Source: Yuukianura sp. NJ FZ-2021
Lineage: Eukaryota
DNA: 64,000 nt
Direction of reading: 5' to 3'
Assembly: GCA_046563655.1 (NCBI GenBank)
Contig: CM102283.1
Location: forward strand, 5,642,001 to 5,706,000
Of this stretch, positions 8,034 through 42,920 are shown in pieces. Numbering within the stretch: the stretch's first letter is position 1; each line of letters opens with the position of its first letter. The notes under the pieces were generated by a model. That model saw nothing but the letters and a program-made list of their open reading frames with translations. It did not search any database and was not told the DNA's origin. A program made the translations under genes and the position numbers.

Positions 8034-9541
8034 GTAGCGTTGCTATGTGTGTTGGAGTTATGTAGTGAACACCATTCTGCGTTCACTCTGTTAGATGGGT
8101 AGAAAGCTTGTCGATTTTGATTCTGTCCGAATCTTTTTTGATTGAATCTGTTTTGGTTTGCCGCAAAGCGATTCTCATTTCCTGTGAATCGGTTTTGATT
8201 TGGAGTAATTTAATTATGATTCGGTGTGAATCGATTCTGATTTTGTTGAAAGCAATTCGCGTCAGAATGTTCATTTGTTCTGTGAAAAGAACAAAACTGC
8301 TGCGGGCTATTTTGGGCCCTAGATGTTCTACAGTCCGCTGCTAGATGTCCTCTTCGGTTGCAAAGTGTGCAAGTAACATTTTTTGGGCATTGTGCGCTAA
8401 AATGTCCTGGCATGGAAGTGAAAACTGAAGGACAAGTGAAACAAACTCCAGTATTAGGATTTTGTGGTCTTGGTGTATCTTGTCTAATTTGATTTTGACG
8501 TAGCGGCTTTGAATAGCCACCAATTCTGGTATTCACTCCGAATTGTTCGGGAGTTGTGTAATCCGGCGAAGTAGGTATATTTTGTTCCTTATTTTGAATT
8601 TTTTCTGGGGTTTTTTGAACAATCATGACTTCCATACGGTTCATTCTTTCCTGGATGTCATTTATGACGTCTTTTTGTTCAAAAAGCTCTGCGGTAGCTT
8701 GTGTCATGACATTGACATCCTTCTGATGTAATAAGAGTTCATTGGTTTCTTCGATGCTCTTCATTGCTTTCAAAAATTCTGGGATTGTTTCTGGCTTTGT
8801 TGCTCCTAGAGCGCTGATGTTGGAAGGTCTTAAATTTCTAATAAGCCACCTAACTTGGCGGGCTTCAGTGATATTTGGATCCATTTGACGAAGTAAATCC
8901 GTCAGTTCATACACATATGTAGTTGCTGATTCATTCAACATCTGCTTCCTATTGATGACCTTTTGTTCGATGGCCATTGTACTGGATTGTCCAAAGGCCT
9001 TAATGAGTTCTCTTTTGAGTGTAGGATAACCTACCAGTAGTGACTGGCCAGGTGGTTTGTTTGAATCCAAAAATGAACAAAGCCAAGCTTCTGCAGTTCC
9101 AGTAAGAGAGGAACTCAGAATAATAGCCCATTCGGTTTGTGGAATTAAATTCCCAGTCATTGCAAATTGGTATTTAGCAATGAATCGCATGACATCTTCA
9201 TTGGTTTTTCCACTAAACGTCGGAATTTTGATTTTATAATTGATTTTTTGTGTAGGGGGTTTTGACCCCGGGATTGGCATTGCGCCTGATTCATCGCTAT
9301 CTTCTTTCAAACGTTTCTTAGAATTTTCTCCAGGATAGTAAGGTTTGAATAGGTATTCCTCTGGATAATTTGGACTTGTAGGAAGGGGTGGATAGACAGG
9401 AATCGTAATTCTATCTCTCTCCAAACCTTTTACAAGTGGGCTATGTCGTACGTTAATTGGAACCCCATTGTGTTTTTTGTCAACAACACTGTCTAGTGTG
9501 TTGTCTATGTCTTTCTGTTTACTTCTAGTATTCGTAGCCAT
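7871..9541 (-). pseudogene. gag: gag, one in-frame TAA at 8212-8210
   Basis: IPTFSG...LTGTAEAW...RKQMLNESATTY capsid-type motifs and knuckle CTLCNRRGHLAADC. ORF 7871-8086 is in the same frame as 8210-9541 and the interval is open. Confidence 0.9.
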
Positions 9542-12500
9542 TTTAATTGACCAATAAACTGTTAAAAAAAACTGTTTGTTAACAAAATAAAAGTCTTACC
9601 TTTAATTGACTTTCTCACGTAGATATGAACAGTGATTCCCCTTGGTTAAAGTTGACAGCTATTTTTACCACTTGGGTTGGGAACTAAAAGCTCTCTTCTT
9701 CTCCGATGTAGATGATAACGAAGGACCGACTCAACCAAACTCAAACTATCAATGTTTCCACTTTGGTTTTTTAAGAATTTTCGTTGATTTAAAAATATTG
9801 AAATTGAATAACGTTAAACAACACAAGTTGAAGTTAAAGTTTGATGGGTAGATTTCTTATTTAAAACTCAAATCAAGAAAAAAAATTTTTTTGAAAACAA
9901 TTTGTTCACCAAAAAATTTTTTTTGTTTTTAACGAATAGTGTTAGTAAGTCTTAACTGACACTAGAATCAAAATAAACTACCGTATTTATAGTAAAGTGC
10001 ACTCAGTTTGTCTTTTTTAAGGCATTTTAGTTCGCATTGATTTTGTTGACGAACCCTTTTCAATTGCGCAATTTTGTAACCAGTCATAGAGAATTTTAAC
10101 GTGTTTCTTTTTTGAAAAATGAATTTTTGTGTTATTTCTGAACACGCTAGTTCATTCCAAATAAAATGTATTGTAACTTCTCATGTACCTTCAACTCACC
10201 TGAAAAAACATAAAGTGAGGAGTTTTTACTTCTATTATTGATTATCAGTAAAAGATTACTAAACACATTTGAAGTGTACCAAGCTTTAAAATTTTGTTTT
10301 ATATCTTATTTTATGATCATAAGGTGCAGTATATTCTCGACAAAAAAAATAGATGAGTGTAATTGATACTCGTAAGTAGAGATTTAATCTGCGGAAATTC
10401 CAAAACGGATTAGAAATTTTCCTTTTAAACTACTCTTCTTTAGTAGCGCCTTTTTTCTAATTTGATTTTAGTTATTTTGCATTAATTAAAATATCCTTTA
10501 CTAAGATCTCTGATTGGGAATTCATTCTTAAAACCTGAATTTCTTTCAGTGACCTTGACAACGCCAAAATTATGGAACGTCTCTTATGGAACTTCTAAGT
10601 TTAAAACTCAGATTTTTAGAAAGCTCAACCTTGTTTCAAGTTATTTTTTGATGAAAACTTCGGAATAGAATCATTTATATTCCAATGTTTAATTTTATAT
10701 AAAAGTTATTGTAAACTTAGTGCCTTAATTCTGTGCGAATGTTCTTGTTTTACTCCTCAGCTATGATTTTTTGATTATTGAAAAATTTCGCTCACCTAGG
10801 GAAAGAAATTCCAAAAAGAATCGAATTCCGTGTCTTCAAAACTTTTTTACATTCCATCAAACGTATAACAGAACTGAAATTCTGGTGCTTTCCCTTCACA
10901 CTAGATAACTCGCCGTACTTGAAAATGAAGCTCTCCCAGTGTTCAGCCATCACTTAAACTTGCTAAACCTTCCAACAATTTCCACTTTCGACTTGCAAAA
11001 TTTCACTCTTTTCTTTTAAAGATTGCTGTCCGAAAATTGTTGCTATTTTTTTAGACAAATGTTTGGAGTCACCCGGAATATGTTTGTTACTTGGCTCAAC
11101 TACTCAAGTTGTTGTTAGGATCGTGACTGACTTTCTTTCTCGAATTGAAAGGCCTTTGGTGTTTCGAATTTTTTTTTCAGAAATGCTGACTTAGCGTGGG
11201 TGGGTGGACTTACGGGGTGCGCGTACCAATCAAAATTGAGCAGCAGTACTGAGGCCATGTGTTGGAATCGTGGTTTTTAGGATTCGCACTTTTTCCCATG
11301 TCAAAAGTTCAAGACATAGTCGTAAATCTCTTAATCTTCTGGCCTCAAAAAAATGCTTTTTCCTTATGGTGCCCATAAGGAATCCCAACGGTCACTTTTT
11401 GACAGATGTGACCTTTCCCTGATCCCGGATTTTAATTTTGCAAAATAAGAGAACAACAATTTTAATCTTAACTGGCCTTAACCAGTTTTAACTTTTAATA
11501 AAATTTTCTGAAAAAATTAATTTAAAAAATTTTCCATCTTTATTAGTTACCTATTCTACCTGAGCGATTGTATACTATATAGCTTTTGTGTCTGTCTGTC
11601 CGTCGGCCTGTCACTCATCAGATTATGAATTTTAATTTTAATTTTACCAAAAAATTTTAATAAAAACTACTTTGTTGTTGTATATGTCTGTCTGTTCGTC
11701 TGTCTGTCTGTCTGTATCTCTGACTACTTTTGATCATGAATATACTCAAATTCGAAAATGGGTTTAATTTAGTAGCTTTGACCTTGCTTATTTATTTCTC
11801 ATAAGAATATTCTAAAAATTATATGTGTTTGGGTCAAAGGTCAATAGTAACGTTTTCTTTCCTATATAAACATGGAATTTGACCAATACGAAAGTTGTTG
11901 GTCACAACTAATCAAGCATCCTTTGTATAGGTGTTTCCTATCTAAAGTTAAATGCTTCGTGGTCGAAACTAAGAATTTCGAAAATTAATTATTTTTAAAT
12001 TTTTATCACAATTTTGAATTTTCTGCTAAATTTCTTACTGTTCACATTAAGTTCAACTTATTCTGGCATATATTAAGTAAAAATTTAAATTATTAAGAGA
12101 TGAGTTATCTTTCAGTACTTATGGTACGTCGTTTTCAGTCAGCTGTTTCGTATTTCAAAATTTCGCGCAAAATTTTCAAAATTTTGGTTTTATTGATCAA
12201 AAACCCATCATTACGTTATTTGGTTATGACCCTTTCAGGTAATTGCAAGTTGAGTCATGTATTTTTCCAAAAAAGTTCAAAATTTTTGCACTTTTGGAAT
12301 TAGATTTTGGAAATACCGTTAATCTTCTTTTAGTGGTCGGTATGTTATGGGTAATGAATTCTAATGGTCCTTGCTTTGTTTACTTCTTGAAATGTTTATA
12401 AAATTGATGTTATAGCTAACTAATATTAAGTATAGTATTCTTATGATTTGTTCAAGTTAATTTGAACTTGAGTTTTTTAGTTTAAAAATACCGTAAATAT

Positions 12501-18765: not shown

Positions 18766-19897
18766 TCATAAGAGTAGTCCACATAGTCTGCTAACTAACA
18801 GCACACATAAGCACGCCACTAAAAATCCAACAAACGCTACACACAATTTTTCAAAACTTTCCACCCTCCCACCAAAATCAAAATCCACCCTAGAATCCTC
18901 CCCTCTGAAGAAGAGGACGCCACGCCATCCTCTTATCCACACGAGATAGGGCGAGGGCACACTCCAATCCAAAACAATAGTGTCTAATCGATCAATAAAT
19001 TCACCGTTCTGATGGACATAGTCTACTAACTCAGAAGCAACTAAAAGTTTCTCCCCTTTCAGTATATCCTTCTTTGCTACCACCTTCACGACTGCCTTTC
19101 CATGCCTAGTACCTTTCAGGAAAATTATGTATTGCTTTTCCTGGTTACAAGTGTGATTGATGAAGGGTGCGATGTTTCCACGCGTAGTACCATCGACAAA
19201 CAGACGTTCCTCATCACGACTGACCGAATTTCCAAGTGACGTTACAAGCGACGTGAATAACTTGACTGAGCTATACGCAGAATCGAAAAACATAAATTTT
19301 TAACATTAATTCACTTTTAAAAAAATAAAAAAAACGCTATAAAACCAATATACATTTCATTAGACAAAGACAACTTATCAGTAGTTAGACTCAGTTTGGT
19401 TTGTAGATCGATAACTTGTCCAGCGTACAAAAACAAGAAATCTCCGGCAGATAAGTTCCGCATTGCTTTCAAGCCCAGCCCACCTACTGTTTCCTCATAA
19501 TAGCAATAACAGGAGTTCACTAGGTCCGCTTTTCCCCAGGTCACGATTTGATCATCATAATATACTCCACTAGTTGGTGTAAATCTAGTTCGTAGATTGT
19601 TCAACATAGGGAAGACAGCAGTATCGTCTTTGTAATACGGAAAACCGAACTTATTCATCTGAAAGACGTGAGACATTATGGATCTATATAGAATGTTATG
19701 AATAATTCAACGGATTCGGTATTTTATAATACTCACCACGAATTAATCTCACACAGCTAGAAACATAGGACAACCCTGGTGGGCTATATACATCTAAGTC
19801 GCTGGACATCCCTTGATCAAAAAATTTACCTTGAGTAGTGGCTACGTTTAAATTAGACTGATTATAATGGCAAATCGAACAAGGGGTGCTCGTAAGC
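18766..19897 (-). pseudogene. SET-domain gene with F-box-ORF-related N-terminus, spliced and decayed
   Basis: SET motifs GGLGLKAMRNLSAGDFLFLYAGQVI, VDGTTRGNIAPFINHTC and VVAKKDILKGEKL. An in-phase GT-AG intron at 19353-19271 joins the two SET halves. A second candidate intron (19736-19684) is out of phase. The N-terminus is homologous to 14785-15025. Confidence 0.8.
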
Positions 19898-24292: not shown

Positions 24293-25529
24293 ACTTCTGG
24301 AGCTAGATTATTATAAAAAACTAGCTAACATATTGGAACTGGATGAATATAAAAAACTAGCTAACACATAGCCATTCGAATTTTGTGTGAAAACCCCCAC
24401 GGGTCATGTTCTGGTGATAGTGTTATGGCCGTAACAGGATCTATCGTGGCATCATTTGTCCCATGGGTAGTGACTGCTGAGCTACTCGTGTTTTGTTGGT
24501 TTCCGAATCGCAGGAAGTGTTGAACCAGACTTGTTAGACACGGCTTCCAACTTCCTAGCTGTTTTCGGTCTTTAGCCTTCCGCTTCGGTCGAAGTTTTTT
24601 CGCCTTCACTCGTTCGGCTTACTCGTCGTCAGTTTCCATGCGTCTACTTATGGAAGTTAGCGCGCTTGATTAACCTTCCCGTTGCTTCTTTCGGATTTAA
24701 ATTTTTAGGCGTTGGTAGAAACAGTGACAACGGTGAAGTTGGAGTTGTCATAGGCGGTGGAATTGGAATTGAGAGATAAGTGGAGTGAGATGATGATGGG
24801 CTGGTCTCCGGTTGACCTCGACCTTTCTTTTTTCTGAGTCTGGATCAGTAAGTAGATGCGTTTCTTCACAACTGGCAATTTTCATGATCTCACCGTCATC
24901 TTCCTCCGCAATGTTTATATTTTTGTCAATTTCCATTACTGCAGGTGATAGACCTGTACATAAAGAATTGACAGTTATGTACCCTCCCCTTCTAACCCCC
25001 GTTCCCCTTCTATAGGTACCCCCTTCCAGTGATCCCTCTCGGTGACCTTTGTTCGAATAGTAGGGGGCCTTCACTGGTCCCCTTCTGTTCTACGCCGGAA
25101 GACCCAGAGATCATCTCTTTGGTTTGCCTTGTCCGGCATGGAGAAACTGTGGTCGAAATATCAGGATACTTTGCTAAGTAATTAATCGTTCTACTTATCA
25201 CTACTCTGTGTCTGATGAGGTCCTCTTCACGTAGTGGGTAGTTTCTTGTCGATCTTTGAGCGATTAGTTGATTAATTAATCAATTAAGTCTCAAGCTTAA
25301 TTTCTTTTACACATTCTCTCTTCGAGTTTCCCCGCTCGCGCCAATTGGTTTCGCACCAATGGCGTGCTACCCAGATTTTTTTTTACAAATATTTTAGCAT
25401 GTCCTGAATCATGATTTCATATCATCAATTCTTTTGGCCTTCGTGATACTGTCTTGCGTTGTTGTTGCATGGTCATCCGCGCCCGCACTTTAGTATATCA
25501 GTGCATCTAATCTATATTACAAAAACCTC

Positions 25530-26130
25530 TCAACCCCTCTGTCTTGTTGTCCTCTCCACATATGGTCCATCCGGTGGTACGATGTAAAACGCTGCACCAG
25601 ATTTCCCGTCAATACGTGAACCGTCAGTGTAGCAGTTTATCGCATCACTAGGAGGACCACGTTTTGCCCGTTCCTTCCACTGCTTCCTCGAGATCACTTC
25701 TATCTCAAAGAATCTCTTAGTCGGCAGTATGTTATATCTCTCGCAAGGAAATCCCATTTCTGGGATATCGCATGCTAATGATTCGCAGATTTGTGCGTGA
25801 GTTTGGGTCTTCAGAAAGTTGACCCTAGCGGGAATCCAGTCACTAGAGATTCTAAGCCGGTACATGGTCCGGAGTGCAACCTCCTTAAGATGATGTCTAG
25901 CGGTCTTAGGTTCAATAGAGCCTCCATGGCTGCTGTCGGTGTAGATTTCATCACTCCGAAAGTCGCCAACAGGGCAGCTCTTTGAACCTTGACCAGAGGT
26001 TTTATGGTATTGGGTTTATGAGCAGCCTCTGTCCAGACCAGCCCACCATAGGTTATGGCTGGTCTAACTGTGGCCTCGTTAATCCAGTGTGTGTACTGTG
26101 GGAAGGCCCTTTCGTTTTTCCAATAGCGCG
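25530..26130 (-). mobile_element. Non-LTR retrotransposon fragment (post-RT region and start of RNase H; R1/LOA-like)
   Basis: VRPAITYGGLVW…VQRAALLATFGVMKSTPTAAMEALLNLRPLD, then a frameshift to …CYTDGSRIDGKSGAAF. Truncated at both ends. Confidence 0.85.
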
Positions 26131-28127
26131 TTAGGTCAGTAATTGAATACCTGTATGAAATACCGGTAGATTTAAGAAATTAAGAAATCAACTATGTTCT
26201 TTAGACAACAATTTTTTCTAGTCTTTAATCGTTAATTCACATAGCACCAAACTCTCCCTCTCATTTTATATGATTGTAAGCACCGTCAATCCCGATCATG
26301 AGGCCTTCAAATGGAGAATAGCTCTACATCAAACGAAAGTCAAATTAAAACAAAATATAACAATTCAACAACTTTCACATGACTTGCACAAGTACTTACA
26401 TGTATTCACAACATCAGTTTTACGAATTTCGCCAAGTTTTGAAGTTGTGGTTATACTATTTCAAAAAATCAAATTTTTTAAAATAAAACGTTCCATTCTT
26501 TCTGGAAAAGTATAACATTCAAAATTCAATAACGCTTACCTTAAACAAATAATCAGAATTAGGATTTATAAGTTTCTGAATCCCATGAATTTTCCAAATA
26601 CGGCTGGGAGAAATCACGGTGTAAAGAATTCGAGTGATGGCCCATAGCAAAAACAAACTCCAGCAATTTCAAAAAGGCGGGTTTTTAACATTTTGGCTGC
26701 CAGTCTCTGTAAAAATATTTATACACAAGTTAACAGGTTAGATCAAATTAACAGACCTAACCTAACAAAAGACTTAAGTCGCAAAGAGGTTGCGACTAGG
26801 TCCCAAGAACTCGCGACCATAATACAACTGGGTGCGACCAGATCGCAAAGGTGTGCGATTGGTCAAAAATTTAGTTGCTGATTACTTAGTAGTGGCACTT
26901 CTCAACTACTGAATAAATGGTGTATGATTTTAACTTAAGTCGCAGTGCCGCCCATCTGCGACTGTAATTTATTAATTTTATGACCAAAAACGGTTACTGG
27001 TCTATTAGATTCTCGTAAAACAAGTCCAATTGTCTCTCTCTCACTCCACTTTTTTCCAAGTCTCACTTCGCCCCTGTTTCCAGTCTTATAGATTTGGTTC
27101 CCTTCGTTTACTGTAGGTCCCATGAACTTTCACCTTCTTTGCTTTTCTCCACTGGGACTTTAGACTGTGGCCCGGTGGAGTGAGACTGTTCTAGTAATAA
27201 ATTTACTCTAGCATTGTTGGAATTACACTGTGGATGAGCTCTCCTTTGTTCAAAAAACTTTGAAAATTTTTCACCTCCCAAGATTGCGTTTCAGCTCCTG
27301 ACAAACCCCTTCTACACATAATGTTGTTTTCTGAATATTGAGAGGATGGCATCTGGAAAAAACCGTAGGCCCCGCCTCTTCCAGAAGTAACCTTCTCCAA
27401 TCCTGGCAGGTGTGAAATAATGAACTCAAACACAGAAACACCAAACTTGGTGGCAGTATAGTTTAATAGCGCTGTTCGCCCTGACAGAGAGTACCCTTGA
27501 CACTTCCTACTGATGGGGGTCATCCCCCCGAAGATGGGGATGACCCCTAGGTCAACTGTGACTGGCTGTTCGTAGAGCAGTGAAAGAAGGAATATGCTAC
27601 CCAAGACGAATGACTCCCCTAAATGAGCACGCGCCCCTGTTTATATACCATCGACTGCCATGGTCACTTTCCCCTCCACTCCACTCTCCTCTGTGGTGTG
27701 CTGTGAGTATGGATTCCAATGCAAGTGCATGGGAATCCATGCTCACAATTCTCCCCCACCGAAGTAAAAAGTGTCTCAGGCATGCCTCTCATGTATGTAT
27801 ACACGGTCTATACAGATCCCTGTGTCCTATAACTTATGTGCCATTTTCTGTGAGCTTTGCAAAATTTTCTCTTCGATTTTTGTGAATTATGAAATTTTTT
27901 TGTATGATTTTCGCTTAACCTAAATAAATTTATAATCCCAACACCTTAATATAATTGTAGAAGTATACCTAGACAGAGAAACTGAAATACAACTGAAGGA
28001 AAGAAAGACAGAAAGGAATTAACAATTAGCACTAGTACATCTTTCAAGTTAGTAAGTAAAATTCGAGTAACTTATACAAAAAATGTGAGATTGGCTACTT
28101 GTTATTGTAGTGTTGTGCTGTACGTGA

Positions 28128-28758
28128 GTGTCACCTAGAGTGTCACCTTTCTTCCTAATGTACGGTCGAGAAGCTAAACTACCAGCTTTAGCGCTACTCC
28201 CGGAATATACGGCATGCCAAGAGGTCGAAGACCTTCAGAAGAGGATTTCTGAGGCCAGACTGCTAGCGAAAGCACACATCGAGGAGGAGCAAGAAAAATA
28301 CGCCAATAGGGTCAACTCAAAATTGACGCCGCCTCCGGAGTTTGAAATTGGATCCGAAGTCGTCATTCGAAAATTTGCAAAGACTTTCAGTTAAACTCAT
28401 GGAGTACTTCAGTGGACCCTACAGGGTGATGGAAAAGAGGTCACCAGTTAACTATGTCGTGGAATATGGAGATGGTAAGACGAAACATCGCAAAACTGTC
28501 CACGTCGACAAAATGAAACCATATTCAAGAAGGGAATAAAATGAATTGCATTCTGTCCAACCTAATCAGGCCAACAATTCCGTTTGCAATGCTCAAGGAA
28601 CATCGGAAAATCTAAAAACTCCGAACGAGACAAATTCCAAAAAATTGCCGAAGAGAGGCAAGAAGGAGCATATTTCAACGCCAGTGGAAGCTTCAGAGGA
28701 ACCTCAGTGTCGTTATAACTTGCGCAGCAGAAGACCTAATCAAACCCAAGCACAATAA
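28128..28758 (+). pseudogene. pol: Gypsy integrase C-terminal fragment
   Basis: SPFFLMYGRE…FEIGSEVVIR, frameshift, then FSGPYRVMEKRSPVNY…VHVDKMKPY (GPY/F motif). After an in-frame stop comes an RYNLR tail. Confidence 0.9.
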
Positions 28759-28832
28759 AATCAACAAGTACAAAAATCTTCAAATCGAATTCGAATCAAT
28801 TTTCTAAATCACGAAATTTGGAAATTCAAGAA

Positions 28833-31365
28833 ATGAATCGGCCAACCAGGTTTGGGAGTTTTGAAGGGACCAGGCGTAGAACGGAAGGCAACTCATCCGG
28901 GGAAGAAAGTGGACCACCAAGGGACGATCCACCGGCTTACGAGGACGAGGGACTCTACGTCCCTCCTCACCGGAGAAGTGTAATTGGATCTGGACGTGAA
29001 GGTGGGCGTGTAGTACGACGTCCAGTGCGTGACAATTTAGTGATTGTGAGTGGACCGCAAGGTCGGAGAGTGATCCGTACACCGGGCCGAGTGCCGTGCC
29101 AGGTACATTCGGAAAACCGGGAGCGGACCGAAAGAGCCGGGTACCGGACGTGGTACTTACGACTCGGACCAGGACGACGGATGAAGGCAAGAAACTGCTT
29201 CAATCACTGGATGCGTGAAGGAGCCCCCAAATGTAAGAAACATGATAAGTTTGTTTGTTGGCATTGCCACAATTGGAAAAAGTTATCACCGGAGGAAAGA
29301 AAGGCGGCCGCCGAAGCAAGACGTAGCGGTCCCGGAAATCCTCGTACCCCACAAACGGAGAAGTCGACCTCCGGAAGTGGAGGGTCATGGAGCCGCTACT
29401 TCCTAGCACTATTCCTCGTGCTGACACTGTTGGCGACGATGATCGCAGGAGCCAGCGGTGGAGAAATGGAACTCAAGCTTTCCAACGGAATTCTAAAGAA
29501 AAAATTGAGCGCCTGGGGATACGAAGAGTCGTTCCCCCTCATATTTGACATGGATCTTCCCGGGAATCAAGAGTTCAACTTTAAAGAAAAACCCGAGGAT
29601 CCACTCCAGAAGCAAATTCAAGAAGCCATGCAGCAAATGAATCCCTGGATGAGGTCTTTGAACCCACACTTGGAAGAAACGGAAGCTCGGTCTAAACGAC
29701 AACTGAACTTCATAGGCGATTTCTACCATTGGTGTTGCGGGGTAGTCGCCCATGATCAATTAACAGAAATCCAACAAGAAGACAGAAGATTGGAGACGAT
29801 GGCGGCAAATTTCAAGAGCAATTTGGACCAAGATCACGCTGACATTGTACGAGTAATGCAGATTGTCAACAACTACAGTGCCAATGTGGATTTTGTGATG
29901 TCCCAAGAACAAGAAATGACCAGGAAGAACACAGTCAGACTTGTCAAGGACAACGAAGCTCTGGCAACAACTCTGACCCACCATAGCAAAAATTTCATTA
30001 CCATGTTTACGGCCCTTCAGAAGGTCATCACCACTGGAACTTGGAGAACCAGCATCTTGGAATGCAGGGAGGGGTACATTCCTAACCTTCTAGTGACCCC
30101 AGAAATCCTGGAAGCGGAGCTGGCGATATTGGCTACTAAGGTCAAGGCATTCAACTTGGAGCCCATCATAAGCAGTGACCACGCCCACCTTTACTACGAA
30201 CTTAAAATAGCCAAGTGCTCCTATTCAAAAACGAAACTTGTAATAACAATCCGAGTTCCGCTGAAACCAACCGGAAGCAGCTACGAGTTCTACGAGTTGA
30301 ACCCCACACCGTACTTGCTTCGGGGAAGCATTTGTCAACTAAATCTTGAGGTGACTAGAGTGGTAAAATCCAGCAACGGATTAATCCCACTACCGGAATC
30401 TCAGAGGAGTGGGTGCGATATCCCTAAGGATCGGTTGTGCCACGTTCCAGTGGCCCCACCAAGAATGAATCAACCCAGTTGCATCGCTGCCCTCATGCAG
30501 GAACAATCAAACTACACTGACATCAACCGGAAGTGCCTAGTTAAGTGCGAGGACCACGATGGAGCGACAAGAGTGACAGCGGCCGCACGAAACGCCTACG
30601 CCATCATCAATACAAACGAAACTTTAATCATCAAGTGCCCCGATTCGGCGGAGGACATCGAGAGGATGGGAGATGTGGGAGTTAGGTTTGTCAAATTGAA
30701 ATGCCACTGCGAGGTTTTCGGTGGTAACGGGAAGAAACTAATTCCGGCCCACTTTCCCTGTCCGGCAACAGAATCAAACAACTCAATCCATCACGAAATC
30801 CCAGGGATCTGGTCGAAGGCAATGGATACAGGAGTCAGGGACCTGACTCACGAAAATCTCACCGATATCCTGGATGAGGACTGGCATCATCACATTAATC
30901 ACCTAAACATGACCTCAAGCCCACCACCATGCCAGTGACAGTGGATTCCATTCCATACTTTGAGGCCACCACGCACTACGCGATTCTTGGAAATGTGATC
31001 AATCTCGTATTAATCCTGTGGGGGGTATGGGTGACGTGGATGTTGCTCAAACCTAATTGGATGGGCCTCCTAGCCGCTCTCCCTGGGGTCAGGGGTCATT
31101 CGGACGACACCCACCTGGCTGTGGAGATTGCGGATGACCTCATCTTAATCCTCATTTGGACGACTATGGTACTCTGTTTCATCATCCTGTTCATTTTGGA
31201 AATCTAAGAAACAAAAGAAGGAGCGGAGTTCGAGAGGCCCCACCACCGCCATCGGCCCCACCGGTCCGATACCGGCCGAGGACACATAATCCGGCTTTGA
31301 CACAGTCCCAACCGAATTTAAACCGAACCATCGTTATAACAGAAGAAGACGACCTCATCTATTGA
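28833..31365 (+). CDS. env: Envelope/fusion glycoprotein-like ORF, two frameshifts near the 3' end (~30930, ~31200)
   Basis: Internal signal-like segment YFLALFLVLTLLATMIAGASG. Furin site RSKR followed by QLNFIGDFYHWCCGV (fusion-peptide-like). Heptad region, Cys-rich region, NxS/T sites, and TM segments in the 30929-31207 frame. Located between integrase and PPT. Confidence 0.85.
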
Positions 31366-31694
31366 AAATTCGAAATCTGGACTTCGGAAACTCCCCAAGG
31401 ACTACAACCTTACGAAATCAGCACTGGAGTGAATCTACGAATGGGTGACATTAGATCTAATCGGCTAATACATGATAATTCAAATATTTCATAATTTTAA
31501 GTACTAGAGATTTTAGTCTAACTTTCTTTCCCCTGGTATAGAAATGGTGGAGGTCACTTTCCTGTGTCACTTTCTCACATTCATTCATTCGTCATTCATA
31601 CGGAATCCGGGAAGGTGAGAAAGGAGGAAGGAGGCCTCTACAAAAGAACAGACTAGTACCAGTTTCGGTATTCCCCCCGGGGGGGGGGGGGTAC

Positions 31695-32246
31695 TGACCT
31701 AGCGTTGGTACCAACATGTTCCTCCCGGGCACGGAAAACGGAAGGGATGCGCCAAGAATACTTCCAGAACTCGTGACTCATGCCAATCAAAAATCAAAAT
31801 TAGATCTTGTTCAGAATCCAAACCTTCTGTTCACCGCAATTCATCTAAAGAAAAAAACAGTTTAGCTTTTTAGAATATTTTGAAATAGATGTTACTTAAT
31901 ACTAGAAATGTGAAACTTATCTGATAGATAATGTAAGATATAAGACGTAAGTGATGAAGGTAGATGTAAGTCAGAACGTTTCCTGGATTTCGGTTGAACT
32001 AATTAGGAAGTTTCAGTTTTACTTCTGTTTCACTTCAATTTGGCTTTTGAAAATGTCTTTTGTCTCCTTAGTTAATATAGCACTATAGCTAAAATATGAT
32101 TCAGAGGTGCAGTAGCTCCTCTTTTGTTGTGTTGGGAGTGTTACACACACACTTTCAGTACAAGGGCATTGTATGCCCTTGCACTGAGAGTGAGTGTGTG
32201 TGTGAGTGGATCTTCAATAAAGTTAGTTGATACGCAGCATCCAACA
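31695..32246 (+). repeat. Putative 3' LTR of the env-bearing element
   Basis: Begins TG just after the G-run PPT, contains a long hairpin and AATAAA, ends in CA. Single copy in the window. Confidence 0.55.
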
Positions 32247-35200
32247 GCAGTAAAAATGGTATCTTGGAGTTGATGAGTTTTTTGTACTGTGTGATCTGTC
32301 AATTTTTTGTAAATGTCAGGTTCGTCCCCTGCTAGAGCGATTTTTTGATGTGAGAGTAATCCTGGATCAAGTTTCGGTGCTGTTTGTATTTTCCCCCTCC
32401 CAATTTTTTCTTTTAAATTGTTTTAAATTGGACAAAGGAGTTGGTGGATTTTGCTGTTTAGTTATTTGCGTAACTAGAGACGACTGTGTTTCCTGTAATT
32501 GGCGAACGGCTTCCTGTAATCTGAGAATTGTTAGTTCCGACCAGGATAGGAGTGAAGAAACTGTAGGGTTATCCGTGTTAGGTTGAGCCAAGTGTAGTTG
32601 TGATTTATCAATTTCAGTGGCCCAGGGATTACGTCGAATTGGAAGATGAGTGATTTCGGGGTCATTAGGCGGGGTCAAGATAGGAGTTAGTGATTCTTCT
32701 AATTCATCGCGTTCTCTGTGCGAGTTGAAATGCGCAACTGTAATTATACAAAAAAATCGCTAACCATACAAAACAATACATAATTAAAGTAGTTAACACA
32801 ACGAAAATCATTGTTGTCGTAATAGTACTTGTTTCCTTTTATTCCCAAAGCCAAATGCAGTGAAAAAATTAACACCTAATTCATCCATTACTAATAACGT
32901 CTTTTCCATAGAAGTAATTAAAAGTAATAATAAATTATAATAATACTAGTTTAATTAATATTGTGCGAATTGTAGTAATTTTTTAATGTTACAAGTACTA
33001 AAATAAAAATAATTAAAAGTTAATTCATACTTATCGGATGCCCATATGTGACGAGGGTGCCTGGCGTAGGGTGAGCACTAGAGGTACGGATCACTCTTGC
33101 TCACCTTTCTATTCGAAATTAAATTTAGTAGATGTTATGGTGACACCAACTTTCAGTGACGCTACCATGCCAATAGGTAATGCTTCTGGAGACACTGCGG
33201 AATTTGCAACTGAAGTTCTAACCACGGTTTCAACTAATCTTCCGCCTACGTTTTCAACCCCTCATTGGGCCACGGAGGCAAGCGTCACAAATGAGTCTCC
33301 GGAGTCAAAGATTCAGTTCCCACGGAAGACAACTCTGTCATGCTTGACACACCAACCGGTAGTTTGGGGAAGTTTTCATCGGTGGCCGTTTCTTCTGAAA
33401 CTAGAGGAGCAGGGTCGGTTGCTGCTGCAGACGTTGAAGCCATTGCTTTCTCAGATGCGATGCTTCCAGTTGTAGTGTTCAGAAAACCAGCAACGCCAGA
33501 GACCATAGTTTGACTAGTGGCTTCGGGAGTCGAAAAGAAACGAGCTGCGAACCCGACATTATTTAAATCCTCCCAAGCTAACTGAATCATAGTGCAAAAG
33601 CTTACCTGAAACCGACATTAGACGCAGTAAAATTGACGGCCTAAATATTCCGTTATTCATGCCTCTGATATCTTCCCGGAAGCTGGATTCGCAGCTAATC
33701 GGTGGTGGATCAATTTCGAAGATATTTGTGAAAGTTAAAACAGCCTTCATTGAATGTAGAATCGCCGAAAACGCATCAAGGGTGGTCTCGTCGTGGCAAA
33801 TTAGAACTTGACAAGTTGATGAAACTTCCTAAATACAAAGTTTTAGTTTTTCTTTTGCACTCATGCAAATTTCGGTCATACTGTCCACCAAGACAGTCAA
33901 CACCGAGGGTCCAGAAAGATGTATAGGTACTTATTTGCAAGTAATAATGAAATTAAATTGCACACTTACACTCAAAAACTTTTTGAATTCAAACGAGGTA
34001 CACATTTCCAGGCATCTTCCCATGTTAAGGACATGGCCTAACCTGGCCAGGGATGATGTTGTGATGCTTTGTAGACCGGCACACAATATTTATTTGCAAG
34101 TACTTCTTCTTGGAGCCGCTTAGCCGTCATGTGTAAACACATCCGGCAGGCAGCCCTTTCCTTTTATAGTCACGGCAATGTAGTATGTTGTTGACATATA
34201 GATGTTGACAGTAGTTGATTGCGGTTATTGAATAAAAACACCCCTGAGCCCTTTGCTCCTCCTTTTTCGGATTGCCGCTTTAGTCAATTTGGAAAGCTTA
34301 TGACAGTGAACCGAAACACCCAAATCGTTTGCCGTTGAACATAGTACAACGTTTACAATTTTAGAAAGTTGACAATCGCTGTGGTTTCTAAGAATCCTAA
34401 CTCTGGTTCTATCCAAAGTGCTTTTGCGAATGAATTTTTGTACGATTTCAAAATGGTCTTGATCAGAATCCATGTTTTTGCAGAAGCAGTTTTTCAAGAA
34501 TGAGGATTTTTTCATAAATGACGTTGAATTTATACGCAACTTTCAAAGTTGCCTTCAATGCAGAATTTATTTACGGTAAATCGACGCAATGGACAACTTT
34601 ATTCCTGATCCAGGAAATCCAGCAAGGCCATATATGGCGGGCATTTGGAAGTGATCTTGGCCAAAATGGCCAAGAGCATTTCCGTCGCTTTAGGAGCCAA
34701 TCTCATCTTTGGGCCAAAAAAATTTTCAAAAGAACTGTAGTATGACGGATTATTAATTTAAAATGTATAGTTGTCAAAATTCCATAAGGGCCGAATCCTG
34801 AGTCGACCACTGCCAAGATATGTAATGTCCTTTTGCCAAAAACCAAGTTGTCTGAACGATCAGGCATCCAGTCAGAATCCAACTCCCCTCCTGGTTTCAA
34901 ATATCCAACTCCAGTTTCGTTTCCTTGTTGAAATAGTTGTTAATTGTTGAGTGAAATAGTTTTCAGTCAATCAGATCGACTGCACAAACATCGACACTAA
35001 AATAGTTTTCGGTCACGAAGGTCGATTACAAAAGTATCAACGCTATCTTTTTCTTTGTTAGAAGAATGTTTTGGATCTCAGTGGATGGAGCTCAGGCCTC
35101 AATATCGTACCAATTTCCGACAAAAAGGTCCATTGTGAAAATGTAATAATGTCTAAAGCCACATATTCTCTGAAATATTGTAAATTGCAAAAACATAAAC

Positions 35201-39917: not shown

Positions 39918-41659
39918 CTACTTAATGTATTTTGGATTTTTTCGTTGCCTTCCTTTTTGATCTAGCACTCCTTGGATCATGCGCCCAATTTCAGGGTCAC
40001 CCTTTGACCAGAGCTGGATGAACCTTTGTTGAACTTGTTTCGAAGATCCGAGGACTAATCTGGCCAAATGCTGTGCACTTCTGCAGCGGTTCCCTTCGTC
40101 CATTTCCTCCCGCCAGTATTTTCCTACTTGTGAGTAGTTGTCATCTTCACTGGTACTCCAGCGATGAATAATTCCAGCGTCGATTTGGGTTTGACTGTCG
40201 TCGAAGTCGTGGTCAACATAGGGGCCATTGTATGAATTCGGGAAGTAGTTGGGTCCGCCATCACCATTTCCAAAGTATTTCATGAATCCATCTCTTTCAT
40301 AATTGTGAACGGGAACTTTTGGCTTGTTTACTGGCAATTGTTCAAAATTTGATCCTAGACGATACCGCGCTGCCACCTCGTACGCAAGAATTCGTCCTTG
40401 GAAGCTACGGTCTGGACCAATTTCGATACCCGGCACCAAGTTCCCTGGGTTGAAGGCCACTTGCTCCACGTCATTGAAATAGTTACCTAAAATTTCGAGA
40501 CAACGAGAAAAGAAAGTCGTTATAACGTTTTTAGGTAGCGTACAAAACATTTGGCAGTATAAAACGGTACATTATACGTCTGACCTGGATTTCGATTCAG
40601 AACCAATGTACCGATGTGTAGAAGTGGAAACTGTTTTACCGGTAAGTATTTTGTGCTACCGAACGGATTAAAATTCAAATTTTTAAGATCGGCTGCTTTA
40701 AAAATTTGAGCGTACAAGTCCCATCTTGGAAATCTTCTACGGGCAATAGCTCTGTAGAGGTCACGCGTCATATAGTCCGGGTCACTGCCAGCCAATACTC
40801 TATATTTCTCGTAAGTTAGCCATTTATATGGGAGTTTGGATACCGTTTGAAATCTAGCAAAGTATGTTTCACCACTACTTCCACCGGTAAGTTTAAATGT
40901 ATTCACACTAAACCCACCCATTACTCTATAATTTTTGGGACGTGCAAGGTCACTCACACCCATTAACTTGTTCAAAAGTCTGGCGGGTTCGGTGAAGAGC
41001 AAATCCAGGTCAGCGGCACCATAACCTAAATTAGTTTTTGGATTTCTCTGCGTAACTCTCTTCATTGTCGGAAAGAGGATTGGATCTCGTGTGTCAAATG
41101 CTGGAAAAGTGAGCAGGGTGAGGTCAAAGTTCCCTTCGTCCGTGTAAAACTTAATAGCAAATCCACGATTCTCAGCTATCGTATCAGCGGAACCAGACTC
41201 TCTCGTCTGAGTTGAAAACCGAACGACCGCTGGCGTTTTTGCACCGACTTTAGCGAACAGTTTGGCACGAGTGTACTTCCGTATGGCTGGATTTTTCGTG
41301 ACAAAGTACCCAAAGGCCCCCGCTCCTTTCGCATGAACTACTCGTTCTGGAATTTTTCGCTGGCAAAAGGATGTCATGTGATTGATGTAGTTTAGGTCTT
41401 GGAGTAGCAGTGGACCAGTTTTACCGATACCGAGTGTCGCTGTCAAACTCTGTTGCGGATTTCCGGAAGATGTTCTGGAGATGGGCGGATTTGGGTTTTC
41501 CTTGGCCCATTGGCTAAGCTGTTGAGCTTCCACGCCTCCTTTGAAGTCTGCCTTTACGCTTGGGCAGACCTCGCCAATTTTATGCGTAAAACATACCGGA
41601 AGTATTTGCATCAACACTGTAAAAACTATGCACTGAACGACACAATTTAGGTCGGTCAT
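39918..41659 (-). CDS. Catalase-family heme protein, 547 aa, two exons (41659-40585, 40486-39918), signal-peptide-like N-terminus
   Basis: KIPERVVHAKGAGAFGYF, VRFST, RGFAIKFYTDEGN, LNRNP|GNYFNDVEQVAFNPGNLVPGIE, QGRILAY, RYRLGSNFEQLPVN. Phase-1 GT-AG intron 40584-40487. Confidence 0.95.
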
Positions 41660-42920
41660 TTCAAATTGCCCGATGTGGTTAATGTCTGTGATTGAACGTC
41701 AGGAATCAATAAAGTCACGGCGCATGCGAACAGTAGAAGTAAAGTGAACACATGCAATATGCAATCAAACTTATAGGTTAGTGGCTTCATAGTTTCAATT
41801 TATAAAAATGCAATATAATGCTTAATTTTCGCAGCAGTTGGTTAGGTCGTCAACCTCGTTGCAGGTTGTATTTTGCTGCAGATATTAGATTAATAAATTA
41901 GAATGGAATTACACGGTGATTGCAATAATTGAGATTGTCTGTGATCTCCACACTGCCACCTCGCCGCCATTTATCGTCTACATTCAGTTTTACATTTCCA
42001 GGACATTCCTATTGTAACTTACAATAGCAATGCTCTGGAAATGTAAAAACCTTACAATTTGTAAGCAGTAGTACAAGTACTTTCTGCAGAAGACTGGTAT
42101 TTTTCTGTCACAAAAGTTTGTAGTTTTTCGTAGTGCTTAAACTTTAGATTAAGGAAGTAAAAGTGACAGATTTAATTTACAAATAAAGATGGTTACTTTG
42201 GTTGTAGCGCCATGATTTAATTTTCAGTTAATTTTAAATTCTTGAACTAAGGAATTTTAAATTGCAGACCTTTACTTTGACCTTTGACTCTTTCGTGTGA
42301 CAATACCTAAGTACCAATTGCATCGCTAAACCCACGCTTCGGAAGTTAAAATACAGGGACTCAGCCGTTTAGTCCGACCCATCAAAAAAACTTTTTTTTA
42401 AATAAACATCAGCTGGTTTTGCCTTGTAGGTTACCAAAAATAGTGAACAGCACATGCAGGGGTAACACCTAAAGATGCTGTCGGTGTCACTATCACGTTA
42501 AGTTTCTTCGTTTTTCAAAATCCGTGATTAATTTTTACGTAACCATAAGCAACAGCCGATGCCCTAGCTTTGTTTTAAATTCAACAAACGGAAAAACGAA
42601 ATTATTTGGACGTGACTGATGAATATTTTGGAAGTGTAATTGAATTACAGTAACAGCGCAGGCAGGGAGCATTGGCTCCTGCCCTTACCGATTGATTTGA
42701 TCTTCGACTGATTGTTTTTCAAAATGTTCTAAATTTGGCCCTTCCCTGGGCACGTCACACAAATAACCGGCTCATTTTGTCAGTCAATCGCTTTAGTACA
42801 CACTTCCGAACGGTTCGAAATTACACTGTGGAGAATTGTAACAATTGACAGGTAACCCGTTAGTACAGTACACTAAAAAGATAATTGTGATTTGACCTTC
42901 CGCCGTTTGATGTGTCTAGG

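What the first reader, a model, noticed from the sequence alone, without database searches (positions are those of the whole stretch)
28833..29460. Env with a ~190-aa pre-signal leader containing PPxY, Arg-rich and Cys/His clusters
Seen: before the hydrophobic signal segment come DDPPAYED, an Arg/Gly-rich stretch and CFNHW…CKKHDKFVCWHCHNW. Known: betaretroviral Env leaders (MMTV Rem/SP, HERV-K Rec) are released as RNA-binding export factors, foamy virus Env has a long leader needed for budding, and PPxY is a late-domain motif. Inference: an invertebrate endogenous retrovirus-like element encoding a regulatory or budding protein in its Env leader.
Basis: partly seen in the sequence, partly recalled or inferred. 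Interest (0 to 1): 0.7.

Follow-up and report, generated by a model that had tools for sequence, protein, structure and literature searches.

The report
Retrovirus-like Env with long pre-signal leader
A broken copy of an invertebrate endogenous retrovirus carries an envelope fusion gene whose signal segment is preceded by an unusually long, arginine-rich extension with a budding-type PPxY motif and a cysteine/histidine cluster, a rare add-on whose function is still untested.

Summary
ORF 28833-30938 (701 aa) starts with 188 residues holding DDPPAYED, two 20-aa Arg-rich repeats and a Cys/His cluster (8 C/H in 25 aa). A signal-peptide-like hydrophobic segment ending AGA follows. The rest is an F-type class I fusion glycoprotein: RSKR site, fusion peptide, 495 distant homologues, and a confident AlphaFold model matching paramyxovirus and baculovirus F. 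An integrase C-terminus lies just upstream. The unit is multi-copy in DNA runs of two organisms, so it is the env of a Ty3/gypsy endogenous retrovirus. The window copy is 5'-truncated and has broken frames.

The leader frame is open far beyond chance (2 of 20000 shuffles). The leader has no detectable homologue. In nearly all relatives the homology starts at an N-terminal signal peptide; only 2 of the 150 best have any pre-signal leader, and one of those carries two CCHC knuckles.

Best reading (about 0.4): a translated, cytoplasmic, membrane-anchored leader peptide that gives Env its own late-domain and capsid/RNA-binding module. Rivals are a Rem-like RNA factor, a host-factor or trafficking role, removal by splicing, and a neutral extension. 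No RNA data could be obtained, so the splice test stays open. I rate it a new variant of a known kind, of moderate interest.

The parts
28135..28538 (+). Integrase C-terminal remnant (end of the core, then the SH3/p58_C domain), read in two frames. The window copy of the element begins here.
   Evidence: Pfam Integrase_p58_C E 2e-9 and SH3_Tf2-1 E 4e-6. Contigs of other copies run on upstream of 28135-28137 with unlike, integrase-like sequence (loose ends). Frame change near 28381-28394.
28539..28760 (+). Tail of pol, same frame as 28393-28536 but behind an in-frame stop at 28537-28539. It ends ...RYNLRSRRPNQTQAQ, with the stop at 28758-28760.
   Evidence: Read through with X. The pol of relative L001 ends with a similar ...RYNLRTRKPVNYKE. 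Contigs in three runs do not share the stop (table 3).
28833..29396 (+). Pre-signal leader, aa 1-188: the first ATG of the frame, basic (+19), rich in Arg, Gly and Pro.
   Evidence: Open frame in 2 of 20000 shuffles. AlphaFold pLDDT under 50 for aa 1-101, with moderate helices at 96-110, 113-129, 144-148 and 153-164.
28929..28940 (+). PPAY (aa 33-36), a PPxY late-domain-type motif in an acidic setting (DDPPAYEDE).
   Evidence: Sequence. Chance about 3% (600 of 20000 shuffles). None of the listed copy variants falls in it.
28977..29093 (+). Two tandem 20-aa Arg-rich repeats (aa 49-67 and 69-87).
   Evidence: Self-comparison, 7 of 11 identical at best in register.
29196..29270 (+). Cys/His cluster: C122, H125, C134, H137, C142, H144, C145, H146. 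Putative zinc site, but not a canonical CCHC knuckle.
   Evidence: Sequence. Cluster reached in 7 of 20000 shuffles. No Pfam zinc-finger hit at E<=10 except Zn_ribbon_InsA at E 0.12. Not modelled with confidence.
29397..29453 (+). Hydrophobic signal-peptide-equivalent segment, aa 189-207, ending A-G-A before SGGE.
   Evidence: Predicted helix 187-206. It aligns with the N-terminal signal peptides of relatives: query aa about 186-215 matches residues 3-28 of most homologues. The AxA motif was read by eye.
29454..29699 (+). F2-like part of the ectodomain, ending in the furin-type site RSKR (aa 286-289, nt 29688-29699).
   Evidence: R289 is at least 90% conserved in alignment A1. Strands 214-241 have pLDDT above 90.
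29700..30938 (+). F1-like part: fusion peptide QLNFIGDFYHWCCGVV, a long helix (337-412) and a Cys-rich head. The frame ends at a stop after SPPPCQ.
   Evidence: 11 invariant Cys/Pro columns, with C301 and C302 nearly invariant. pLDDT above 90 over aa 350-690. Foldseek: RSV and other paramyxovirus F, E 1.8e-7, prob 1.00. Chu-like virus glycoprotein E 2e-20, baculovirus Ld130/F E about 1e-11.
30929..31207 (+). Continuation of Env in another frame (92 aa): PVTVDSIPYF..., two hydrophobic segments with ALPGVRG/HSDD between them.
   Evidence: It matches relative P0022, which reads this part in one frame. Other copies carry an indel at the break.
31192..31365 (+). C-terminal tail in a third frame (57 aa, holds PPPPSAPP, ends EEDDLIY, then a stop).
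   Evidence: The tail of P0022 ends ...ELQDDIIY. Other copies carry an indel near 31195.
31609..32246 (+). Purine-rich tract (31609-31636) followed by a highly repeated stretch, taken to be part of the 3' LTR. Other copies read on past 32246 with sequence unlike the window.
   Evidence: Sequence. Depth is highest in bins 31622-32223, with loose ends at 31629 and at 32202-32246. No second LTR is in the window, so the LTR call is an inference.

Best explanation
The ORF is the env gene of a multi-copy Ty3/gypsy-type endogenous retrovirus. It encodes an F-type class I fusion glycoprotein, and the first 188 codons are a translated part of it.

Proposed mechanism:
1. Translation starts at the ATG at 28833.
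2. The strongly basic leader stays in the cytosol, and the hydrophobic segment (aa 189-207) inserts N-in and translocates the ectodomain.
3. Signal peptidase cuts after A-G-A(207). This leaves a leader peptide of about 207 aa anchored in the membrane in type II orientation, possibly still associated with the Env trimer.
4. Its cytosolic part gives Env a module that Gag or a matrix protein normally supplies. PPAY recruits Nedd4-type WW-domain ligases and the ESCRT pathway. The Arg-rich repeats and the Cys/His cluster bind the capsid or the element's RNA. Together they couple Env to particle assembly and release.

Shown: the motifs, the open frame, the Env identity and fold, the position after integrase, the multi-copy state, and the rarity of such leaders among relatives.

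Inferred: translation from this ATG, topology, cleavage, zinc binding, and every interaction.
For: Identity of the Env:
- There are 495 homologues at E<=1e-3, and 43 at E<=1e-30.
- 14 of 67 aligned relatives hit Pfam Baculo_F.
- The AlphaFold ectodomain has pLDDT above 90. It matches paramyxovirus F (E 1.8e-7) and baculovirus and chu-like virus F-type glycoproteins.
- An integrase C-terminal domain lies just upstream.
- The nearest full-length relative, L001, is gag(CCHC)-pol(PR-RT-RH-IN)-env.
- The unit is multi-copy in runs of two organisms.

Leader is coding:
- It has 0 stops in 188 codons, against 8 and 9 in the other frames. Only 2 of 20000 shuffles stay open.
- The ATG has A at -3.
- Contigs from a second organism cover 28831-29138 without gaps.

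Topology and cleavage:
- Net charge is +19 before the anchor.
- The anchor is positionally equivalent to the relatives' signal peptides.
- An AxA motif follows it (read from the sequence).

Module reading:
- The Cys/His cluster is non-random (7 of 20000 shuffles).
- PPxY binds WW domains of NEDD4-like ligases and promotes budding (passage in PMC3705266).
- A distant relative, P0011, has a leader of about 270 aa, in one ORF on a 3159-nt contig, with two canonical CCHC knuckles and Arg-rich stretches.
- In the Drosophila idefix subclade the Env-F N-terminus before the signal peptide comes from within gag (passages in PMC12992720).
Against: - There is no RNA or protein evidence. No RNA run holds the stretch, so use of this ATG is unproven.
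- Env of insect relatives is normally made from a spliced mRNA whose first exon can supply the start codon (PMC12992720). The lack of a Met near the signal segment therefore proves nothing.
- The leader has no homologue. Most relatives do without one: 148 of the 150 best.
- PPxY alone has about a 3% chance of occurring.
- PPxY or P[TS]AP is found in only 3 of 117 C-terminal tails of relatives, so cytosolic late domains are not a family habit.
- The Cys/His spacing fits no known zinc finger, and both models of this part are of low confidence.
- Among the 12 copy variants listed in the leader, 7 are synonymous and 5 are not. Three of the non-synonymous ones sit in one Arg-rich repeat. This is a small, selected subset and only a weak sign of constraint.
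- The element's own Gag could not be seen, so whether it lacks a late domain is unknown.
Confidence: 0.4

Rival explanations
1. Rem/Rec-type factor. The leader is cut off by signal peptidase, extracted from the ER membrane, and goes to the nucleus or nucleolus. There its Arg-rich motifs and Cys/His cluster bind the element's unspliced RNA and promote its export or translation.
For: - It is a long Env signal peptide with Arg-rich stretches and an AxA cleavage motif.
- The 98-aa MMTV SP is made from both Rem and Env by signal peptidase and is retrotranslocated (abstracts of PMC5371415 and PMC8725593).
- The helical Arg-rich stretch at aa 96-129 is modelled at pLDDT 63-71.
- The CCHC knuckles in the P0011 leader point to nucleic-acid binding.
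Against: - A PPxY motif has no role in such a factor.
- There is no homology to Rem, Rec or Rej (Pfam, PDB and Atlas searches blank).
- No leucine-rich export signal was looked for or seen.
- Ty3/gypsy elements are not known to need a Rev-like factor (my own knowledge).
- A response element cannot be sought, because the copy lacks its 5' half.
Confidence: 0.2
2. Accessory or trafficking role. The leader acts on host proteins or on Env itself. Either PPAY-driven ubiquitination and endosomal sorting set the surface level of the fusogen, or the leader antagonises a host restriction factor, as the FIV Env signal peptide does.
For: - The FIV Env signal peptide (175 aa, called the longest known) is an autonomous tetherin antagonist (abstract of PMC10128041).
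- Ubiquitination of the cytoplasmic domain of foamy virus LP regulates subviral particle release (passage in PMC3705266).
- The membrane-proximal half of the leader has nine Lys.
- The leader is lineage-specific, as accessory functions usually are.
Against: It does not explain the Arg-rich repeats or the Cys/His cluster. There is no homology to any known antagonist. It is entirely untested.
Confidence: 0.15
3. The leader is not part of Env. The env mRNA is spliced from an upstream exon to an acceptor just before the signal segment, as in insect errantiviruses. The open frame then belongs to another product or is a remnant.
For: - Env of Drosophila relatives is translated from spliced mRNA, with the start supplied by an upstream exon (PMC12992720).
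- There is no Met between aa 127 and the anchor.
- 148 of the 150 best relatives start with the signal peptide.
Against: - The leader is 188 codons open in frame with Env, which 2 of 20000 shuffles achieve. That would be unexplained for an intron or UTR.
- No pyrimidine tract precedes an AG in 29340-29400 (read by eye).
- Two other relatives, P0001/L001 and P0011, also have in-frame leaders and no Met next to the signal segment.
Confidence: 0.15
4. Neutral N-terminal extension. The leader is translated but has no function of its own. It is a recent capture of upstream sequence that the signal segment tolerates.
For: - It has no homologue.
- It is low-complexity and predicted to be largely disordered.
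- Several non-synonymous differences occur between copies.
Against: - The Cys/His clustering is non-random.
- It has an internal repeat structure and a PPxY motif.
- It is retained in copies of two organisms, and in a copy lineage about 10% diverged.
Confidence: 0.1

Closest known systems
Env-F of env-carrying Ty3/gypsy elements ('errantiviruses' of insects and the 'ancient errantiviruses' across Metazoa)
   Same: An F-type ectodomain with furin site, fusion peptide and conserved cysteines. The gene lies after pol/integrase, and genomic copies are many and similar (passages of PMC13524379; passages of PMC12992720; here).
   Different: Those papers describe the F ectodomain as flanked by a signal peptide and a TM domain. 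The passages found by my term searches mention no long leader encoded in the env exon. The figures and supplements of both papers were not seen.
Drosophila idefix-subclade Env-F
   Same: Env carries residues N-terminal to the signal peptide. [quoted passage not shown]
   Different: There the extension comes from within gag by splicing. Here it is encoded between pol and the signal segment, in the env frame itself. The length and motifs of the idefix extension are in appendix figures that I could not see.
Foamy virus Env leader peptide (gp18LP)
   Same: A long N-terminal Env leader with a cytoplasmic domain that contacts the capsid, is ubiquitinated and influences particle release (passages of PMC3705266).
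   Different: There is no sequence homology. The leader has no WxxW motif and no RxxR site between the anchor and the ectodomain (sequence). Foamy LP has no PPxY or Cys/His cluster, and its Env is not F-type (my own knowledge).
MMTV Rem/Env signal peptide (98 aa); JSRV and HERV-K Rec leaders (the last two recalled)
   Same: A long, basic Env signal peptide released by signal peptidase and acting as a separate protein (abstracts of PMC5371415 and PMC8725593).
   Different: The leader here is about twice as long, has PPxY and a Cys/His cluster, and shows no homology. Nuclear function and a response element are untested.
FIV Env signal peptide Fsp (175 aa)
   Same: An extremely long Env signal peptide with an autonomous accessory function (abstract of PMC10128041).
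   Different: There is no homology. If cleaved after A207, this leader would be longer than the 175 aa that the abstract calls the longest known. The target and function here are unknown.
Arenavirus Z matrix protein
   Same: A small membrane-attached zinc-binding protein with late domains that drives budding (abstract of PMC3497041; the PPPY/PTAP detail is recalled).
   Different: Z is a separate myristoylated RING protein. Here the module is fused to Env and anchored by the signal segment, and the Cys/His spacing is not a RING.

Membership tests
F-type class I fusion glycoprotein (Pfam Baculo_F PF12259; paramyxovirus F-like) | Significant sequence similarity to family members | tested here: met
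   phmmer found 495 hits at E<=1e-3, the best at 7e-71. 14 of 67 aligned relatives hit PF12259, best E 2.2e-15. The window protein itself gets no Pfam hit, so membership is transitive.
F-type class I fusion glycoprotein (Pfam Baculo_F PF12259; paramyxovirus F-like) | Furin-type cleavage site directly followed by a hydrophobic fusion peptide | tested here: met
   RSKR (aa 286-289) is followed by QLNFIGDFYHWCCGVV. R289, C301 and C302 are at least 90% conserved in A1.
F-type class I fusion glycoprotein (Pfam Baculo_F PF12259; paramyxovirus F-like) | F-like fold of the ectodomain | tested here: met
   The model has pLDDT above 90 over aa 350-690. Foldseek prob 1.00 to RSV, hPIV3, Nipah and Langya F and to baculovirus F and chu-like virus glycoproteins. 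TM-scores are low (0.2-0.5), as expected between pre-fusion and post-fusion forms.
F-type class I fusion glycoprotein (Pfam Baculo_F PF12259; paramyxovirus F-like) | C-terminal membrane anchor in frame | tested here: not met
   In the window copy the anchor and the tail lie in two other frames. Relative P0022 has them in one frame. This is damage to this copy, not a family difference.
Env-carrying Ty3/gypsy (Metaviridae) endogenous retrovirus | env directly downstream of a pol ending in a Ty3/gypsy-type integrase | tested here: met
   Integrase_p58_C E 2e-9 and SH3_Tf2-1. The pol tail ends 72 nt before the env ATG.
Env-carrying Ty3/gypsy (Metaviridae) endogenous retrovirus | gag and PR-RT-RH-IN in the same unit | tested here: inconclusive
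   These are absent from the window copy, which starts at 28135. Other copies run on upstream. The nearest full-length relative, L001, has gag with CCHC and PR-RT-RH-IN.
Env-carrying Ty3/gypsy (Metaviridae) endogenous retrovirus | Flanking LTRs | tested here: inconclusive
   No direct repeat pair was found in 18000-40000. A purine tract and a repeated stretch at 31609-32246 fit a partial 3' LTR.
Long functional Env leader / signal peptides (MMTV SP, FIV Fsp type) | Extension of many tens of residues before the hydrophobic core, followed by a signal-peptidase site | tested here: met
   188 aa precede the core, and A-G-A lies at 205-207. The cleavage site was read by eye; no predictor was available.
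Long functional Env leader / signal peptides (MMTV SP, FIV Fsp type) | Released leader has its own activity (RNA export, tetherin antagonism) | not testable with these tools
   This needs expression and localisation experiments.
Foamy virus Env leader peptide | Conserved WxxW capsid-binding motif in the cytoplasmic domain | tested here: not met
   Trp sits at 107, 126, 143, 148 and 186, with no WxxW (sequence). The motif is described in PMC3705266.
Foamy virus Env leader peptide | Furin (RxxR) site between the leader and the surface subunit | tested here: not met
   There is no RxxR in aa 208-285. The first is RSKR at 286-289, which is the F2/F1 site.
PPxY late domain | PPxY core on a cytosolic part of a viral structural protein, binding WW domains of Nedd4-type ligases | tested here: inconclusive
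   The core PPAY is present. The cytosolic location is inferred from the charge, binding is untested, and the motif has about a 3% chance of arising.
Retroviral CCHC zinc knuckle (PF00098) | C-x2-C-x4-H-x4-C spacing | tested here: not met
   The leader has C-x2-H-x8-C-x2-H-x4-C-x-H-C-H. There is no zf-CCHC hit at E<=10. The leader of relative P0011 does have two canonical knuckles.

The most novel reading that the evidence does not exclude
The leader is a self-contained matrix/nucleocapsid-like module welded to a class I fusogen. It combines a late domain, an Arg-rich and zinc-binding nucleic-acid or capsid binder, and a membrane anchor. Cut off after A207, it would be the longest signal peptide on record: the FIV one, at 175 aa, is called the longest in the abstract of PMC10128041. 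It would let Env itself recruit ESCRT and the genome or capsid.

Such modules would have arisen independently in several invertebrate Ty3/gypsy retroviruses: this one, the CCHC-bearing leader of P0011, and the Gag-derived N-terminus of the idefix subclade.
Probability: 0.25. Interest if true: 0.7.

Novelty: new variant of a known kind. Interest (0 to 1): 0.45.

Why it matters
F-type Env genes on Ty3/gypsy elements are now known across animals. How these Envs are coupled to capsids, and how particles leave cells, is largely unknown outside Drosophila.

An Env that brings its own cytosolic late-domain and zinc/Arg-rich module would be a compact solution to that problem. It would parallel foamy virus LP, arenavirus Z and betaretroviral signal peptides, but in an unrelated fusogen class.

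It would also extend the list of very long, functional viral signal peptides. The leader part of the ORF is intact in this copy, so ordinary expression tests of the leader are possible.

Tried and rejected
- **Host genome:** none is held, so copies could not be collected and no copy tree or dN/dS could be made.
- **RNA evidence:** no RNA holder was listed for the stretch. Only four DNA contig runs could be laid, so splicing and expression are untested.
- **Leader homologues:**
  - Pfam at E<=10 gave only Zn_ribbon_InsA at E 0.12.
  - The word-index protein search of the leader gave nothing.
  - ESM Atlas gave no usable hit.
  - The PDB sequence search gave only a fumarase at E 0.34.
  - blastp against the 151 fetched Env relatives gave a best E of 0.58.
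  - Against the L001 gag the best E was 3.6.
  - Against P0011 the best E was 0.047, over CWHC/CWFC, which is not convincing.
- **First whole-ORF word-index search:** found nothing, although phmmer later found 495 relatives. That blank was a sensitivity limit.
- **Viral contigs:** no pattern match.
- **Metagenome contigs with the env/P0151 alignment:** 213 pattern matches, none confirmed. A four-sequence alignment was rejected by the tool as too gappy.
- **Leader-only AlphaFold model:** pLDDT 47.7, too poor for a fold search.
- **Earlier findings of this scan:** nothing.
- **Idea that cytosolic late domains are a habit of this Env family:** rejected. Only 3 of 117 C-tails have PPxY or P[TS]AP, and most PPxY matches in relatives are a conserved ectodomain motif before P-C.
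- **Idea that the other Ty3/gypsy element in the window (4175-9595, minus strand) is the missing 5' half:** rejected. It is on the opposite strand, 19 kb away, and tblastn found no second env-like stretch in the window.
Full report
**What is there**

On the + strand an ORF runs from the ATG at 28833 to a stop at 30936-30938 (701 aa). The stop-to-stop frame opens at 28740 and has no earlier ATG.
- a basic start, then DDPPAYED (aa 31-38);
- an Arg/Gly/Pro-rich body (R 16%, G 12%, P 9%, net charge +19);
- a cluster C122, H125, C134, H137, C142, H144, C145, H146.

I also found that aa 49-67 and 69-87 are two copies of a 20-aa Arg-rich unit. Residues 189-207 (YFLALFLVLTLLATMIAGA) form a hydrophobic helix and end in an A-x-A motif.

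The leader frame has no stop, while the other two frames have 8 and 9. Only 2 of 20000 shuffles of its bases stay open. The C/H clustering is reached by 7 of 20000 shuffles. PPxY is reached by 600 of 20000, so on its own it is weak.

**What the rest of the ORF is**

Pfam gives nothing for the window protein, and a word-index search gave nothing. An exhaustive phmmer search found 495 relatives at E<=1e-3 and 43 at E<=1e-30. The best has 28% identity.

Of 67 aligned sequences, 14 relatives match Pfam Baculo_F. The alignment keeps the RxKR site (RSKR, aa 286-289), the WCCG fusion-peptide core and eleven invariant Cys/Pro columns.

An AlphaFold model built on that alignment is confident over the ectodomain, with pLDDT above 90 for aa 350-690. 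It matches paramyxo- and pneumovirus F (E 1.8e-7, prob 1.00). It also matches baculovirus Ld130/F and chu-like virus glycoproteins (E down to 2e-20). This is an F-type class I fusion Env.

**Which element it belongs to**

Directly upstream lies the C-terminal part of a Ty3/gypsy-type integrase (Integrase_p58_C E 2e-9, SH3_Tf2-1). It is followed by a pol tail that ends 72 nt before the env ATG.

No RT or gag lies upstream on this strand. Contigs of four public DNA runs from two coded organisms show two things:
- The stretch from about 28135 to about 32246 is multi-copy.
- Other copies read on upstream of 28135 with integrase-like sequence.

The window copy is therefore 5'-truncated. It is also damaged in four places:
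- a frame change in the integrase remnant;
- an in-frame stop in the pol tail;
- a frame break in env near 30929, so that the membrane anchor (30929-31207) is out of frame;
- a further break, so that the tail (31192-31365) is in a third frame.

Relative P0022 (49% identity) reads anchor and tail in one frame and ends ...DDIIY, like the window's ...EEDDLIY.

The nearest full-length relative I could fetch is L001. It has gag with a CCHC knuckle, pol with PR-RT-RH-IN, and env. The named relative P0025 is annotated as a Ty3 Gag-Pol polyprotein of a springtail.

This fits the env-carrying Ty3/gypsy elements with F-type Env described across Metazoa (PMC13524379, abstract and passages). The host is not identified. 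A neighbouring catalase is nearest to arthropod catalases at 44-48% identity.

**How unusual the leader is**

In the phmmer table the homology begins at query residues about 186-215, which pair with residues 3-28 of most relatives. Their signal peptide is therefore N-terminal.

Of the 150 best relatives, 14 have extra length before the furin site. On inspection of 12 of the 14:
- Nine begin with a signal peptide and simply have a longer F2.
- One (P0102) is a 5'-partial fragment.
- Only P0001 (about 100 aa) and P0011 (about 270 aa) have a leader before the signal segment.

The other two were not inspected. One is a pol-env gene model (P0025) and one is a two-stretch artefact (P0043).

The P0011 leader lies in one ORF on a 3159-nt contig. 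It carries two canonical CCHC knuckles and Arg-rich stretches. In L001 the env frame likewise has its first ATG 100 codons before the signal segment, with no Met next to it.

The window's leader has no detectable homologue anywhere.

It is kept in copies of both organisms:
- One contig of organism B covers 28831-29138 with 10 differences and no gap.
- A copy lineage about 10% diverged also aligns through it.

Of the 12 best-supported differences listed in the leader, 7 are synonymous and 5 are not. None touches PPAY or a C/H residue. More than 500 further differences were not shown, so this is only a hint of constraint.

**How it most likely works**

My best reading has four steps:
1. The leader is translated as the N-terminus of Env.
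2. It stays cytosolic, by the positive-inside rule.
3. The hydrophobic segment acts as the signal peptide and is cut after A207.
4. The membrane-anchored leader peptide gives Env a late domain (PPAY) and a capsid- or RNA-binding part (the Arg-rich repeats and the Cys/His cluster) for assembly and release.

Several published facts bear on this:
- PPxY motifs bind NEDD4-like ligases and promote budding. The foamy virus Env leader contacts the capsid and is ubiquitinated (passages of PMC3705266).
- Arenavirus Z is a zinc-binding matrix protein central to budding (abstract of PMC3497041).
- In the Drosophila idefix subclade, Env-F already carries a Gag-derived stretch before its signal peptide (PMC12992720).

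I give this reading about 0.4. The rivals are:
- a Rem-type RNA factor (0.2; the MMTV SP is 98 aa);
- an accessory or trafficking role like the 175-aa FIV signal peptide (0.15);
- removal of the leader by splicing (0.15);
- a neutral extension (0.1).

The splicing rival matters because insect Env-F is normally made from a spliced mRNA whose first exon can supply the start codon. The long open frame speaks against it, but only RNA data can settle it.

**Limits**

- No host genome and no RNA run were available.
- No signal-peptide predictor was available.
- Both models of the leader are of low confidence.
- The element's own Gag was not seen.
- The figures and supplements of the two key papers were not seen, and they may already show leaders of this kind.

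**Verdict**

The leader is a real and rare feature of an otherwise known kind of element, and its function is open.

Noticed in passing
window 4175-9595 (minus strand); also 1497-2333 (minus): A second, unrelated Ty3/gypsy element with gag (Retrotrans_gag, zf-CCHC), protease, RT, RNase H and integrase, spread over several frames. The 278-aa ORF downstream of its integrase (1497-2333) has no Pfam hit and no similarity to the Env studied here. Whether it is another kind of env was not examined.
   Followed up: partly
window 30929-31207, and homologues P0001, P0003, P0004, P0017, P0047, P0050, P0072: The C-terminus of this Env clade has two hydrophobic segments (83 of 122 homologues of 560 aa or more). 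In several (7 of the 83 by a strict pattern) they are separated by P-x-[VA]-R-[AG]-[DE], which looks like a signal-peptidase site; the window has ALPGVRG/HSDD. This would imply a second cleavage or a small C-terminal membrane protein.
   Followed up: partly
window 31192-31365: The out-of-frame C-terminal tail holds PPPPSAPP, a PSAP late-domain-like motif, and ends EEDDLIY, like relative P0022 (...DDIIY). The PSAP is not kept in P0022.
   Followed up: partly
P0011 (aa 1-285); P0003 and P0004 (C-terminal about 200 aa): Other Envs of the family carry basic, Cys-containing cytosolic add-ons at one end or the other. P0011 has an N-terminal leader with two CCHC knuckles. P0003 and P0004 have long basic C-tails ending in C-x4-C-x2-C.
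   Followed up: partly
window 26360 / 32412: Contigs of runs X1 and X2 join 26360 to 32412 with 34 other letters between them. A form of this locus therefore exists without about 6 kb that includes the retroviral fragment (tables 5 and 5c).
   Followed up: no
window 39918-41698 (minus strand): A catalase gene read in two overlapping frames (392 and 217 aa, overlap 40520-40571), meaning a frame break or a very short intron. The best unnamed relative has 59% identity; named arthropod, nematode and sponge catalases have 44-48%.
   Followed up: partly
window 31673-31691: A run of 6 C followed by 13 G, inside the repeated stretch taken to be the 3' LTR.
   Followed up: no
window 25000-26200 (minus-strand ORF 25530-26015) and 18766-19299 (minus): The 25000-26200 stretch is highly repeated in the runs. 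Its ORF has a DGS...G motif reminiscent of a LINE RNase H but gets no Pfam hit. Separately, there is a SET-domain fragment at 18766-19299 (E 6e-6).
   Followed up: no
window 28754-28831: Contigs of X2 and X3 skip 76 nt just upstream of the env ATG, between the pol stop and the start codon. This is a DNA-level length variant among copies, not a splice (table 5).
   Followed up: no
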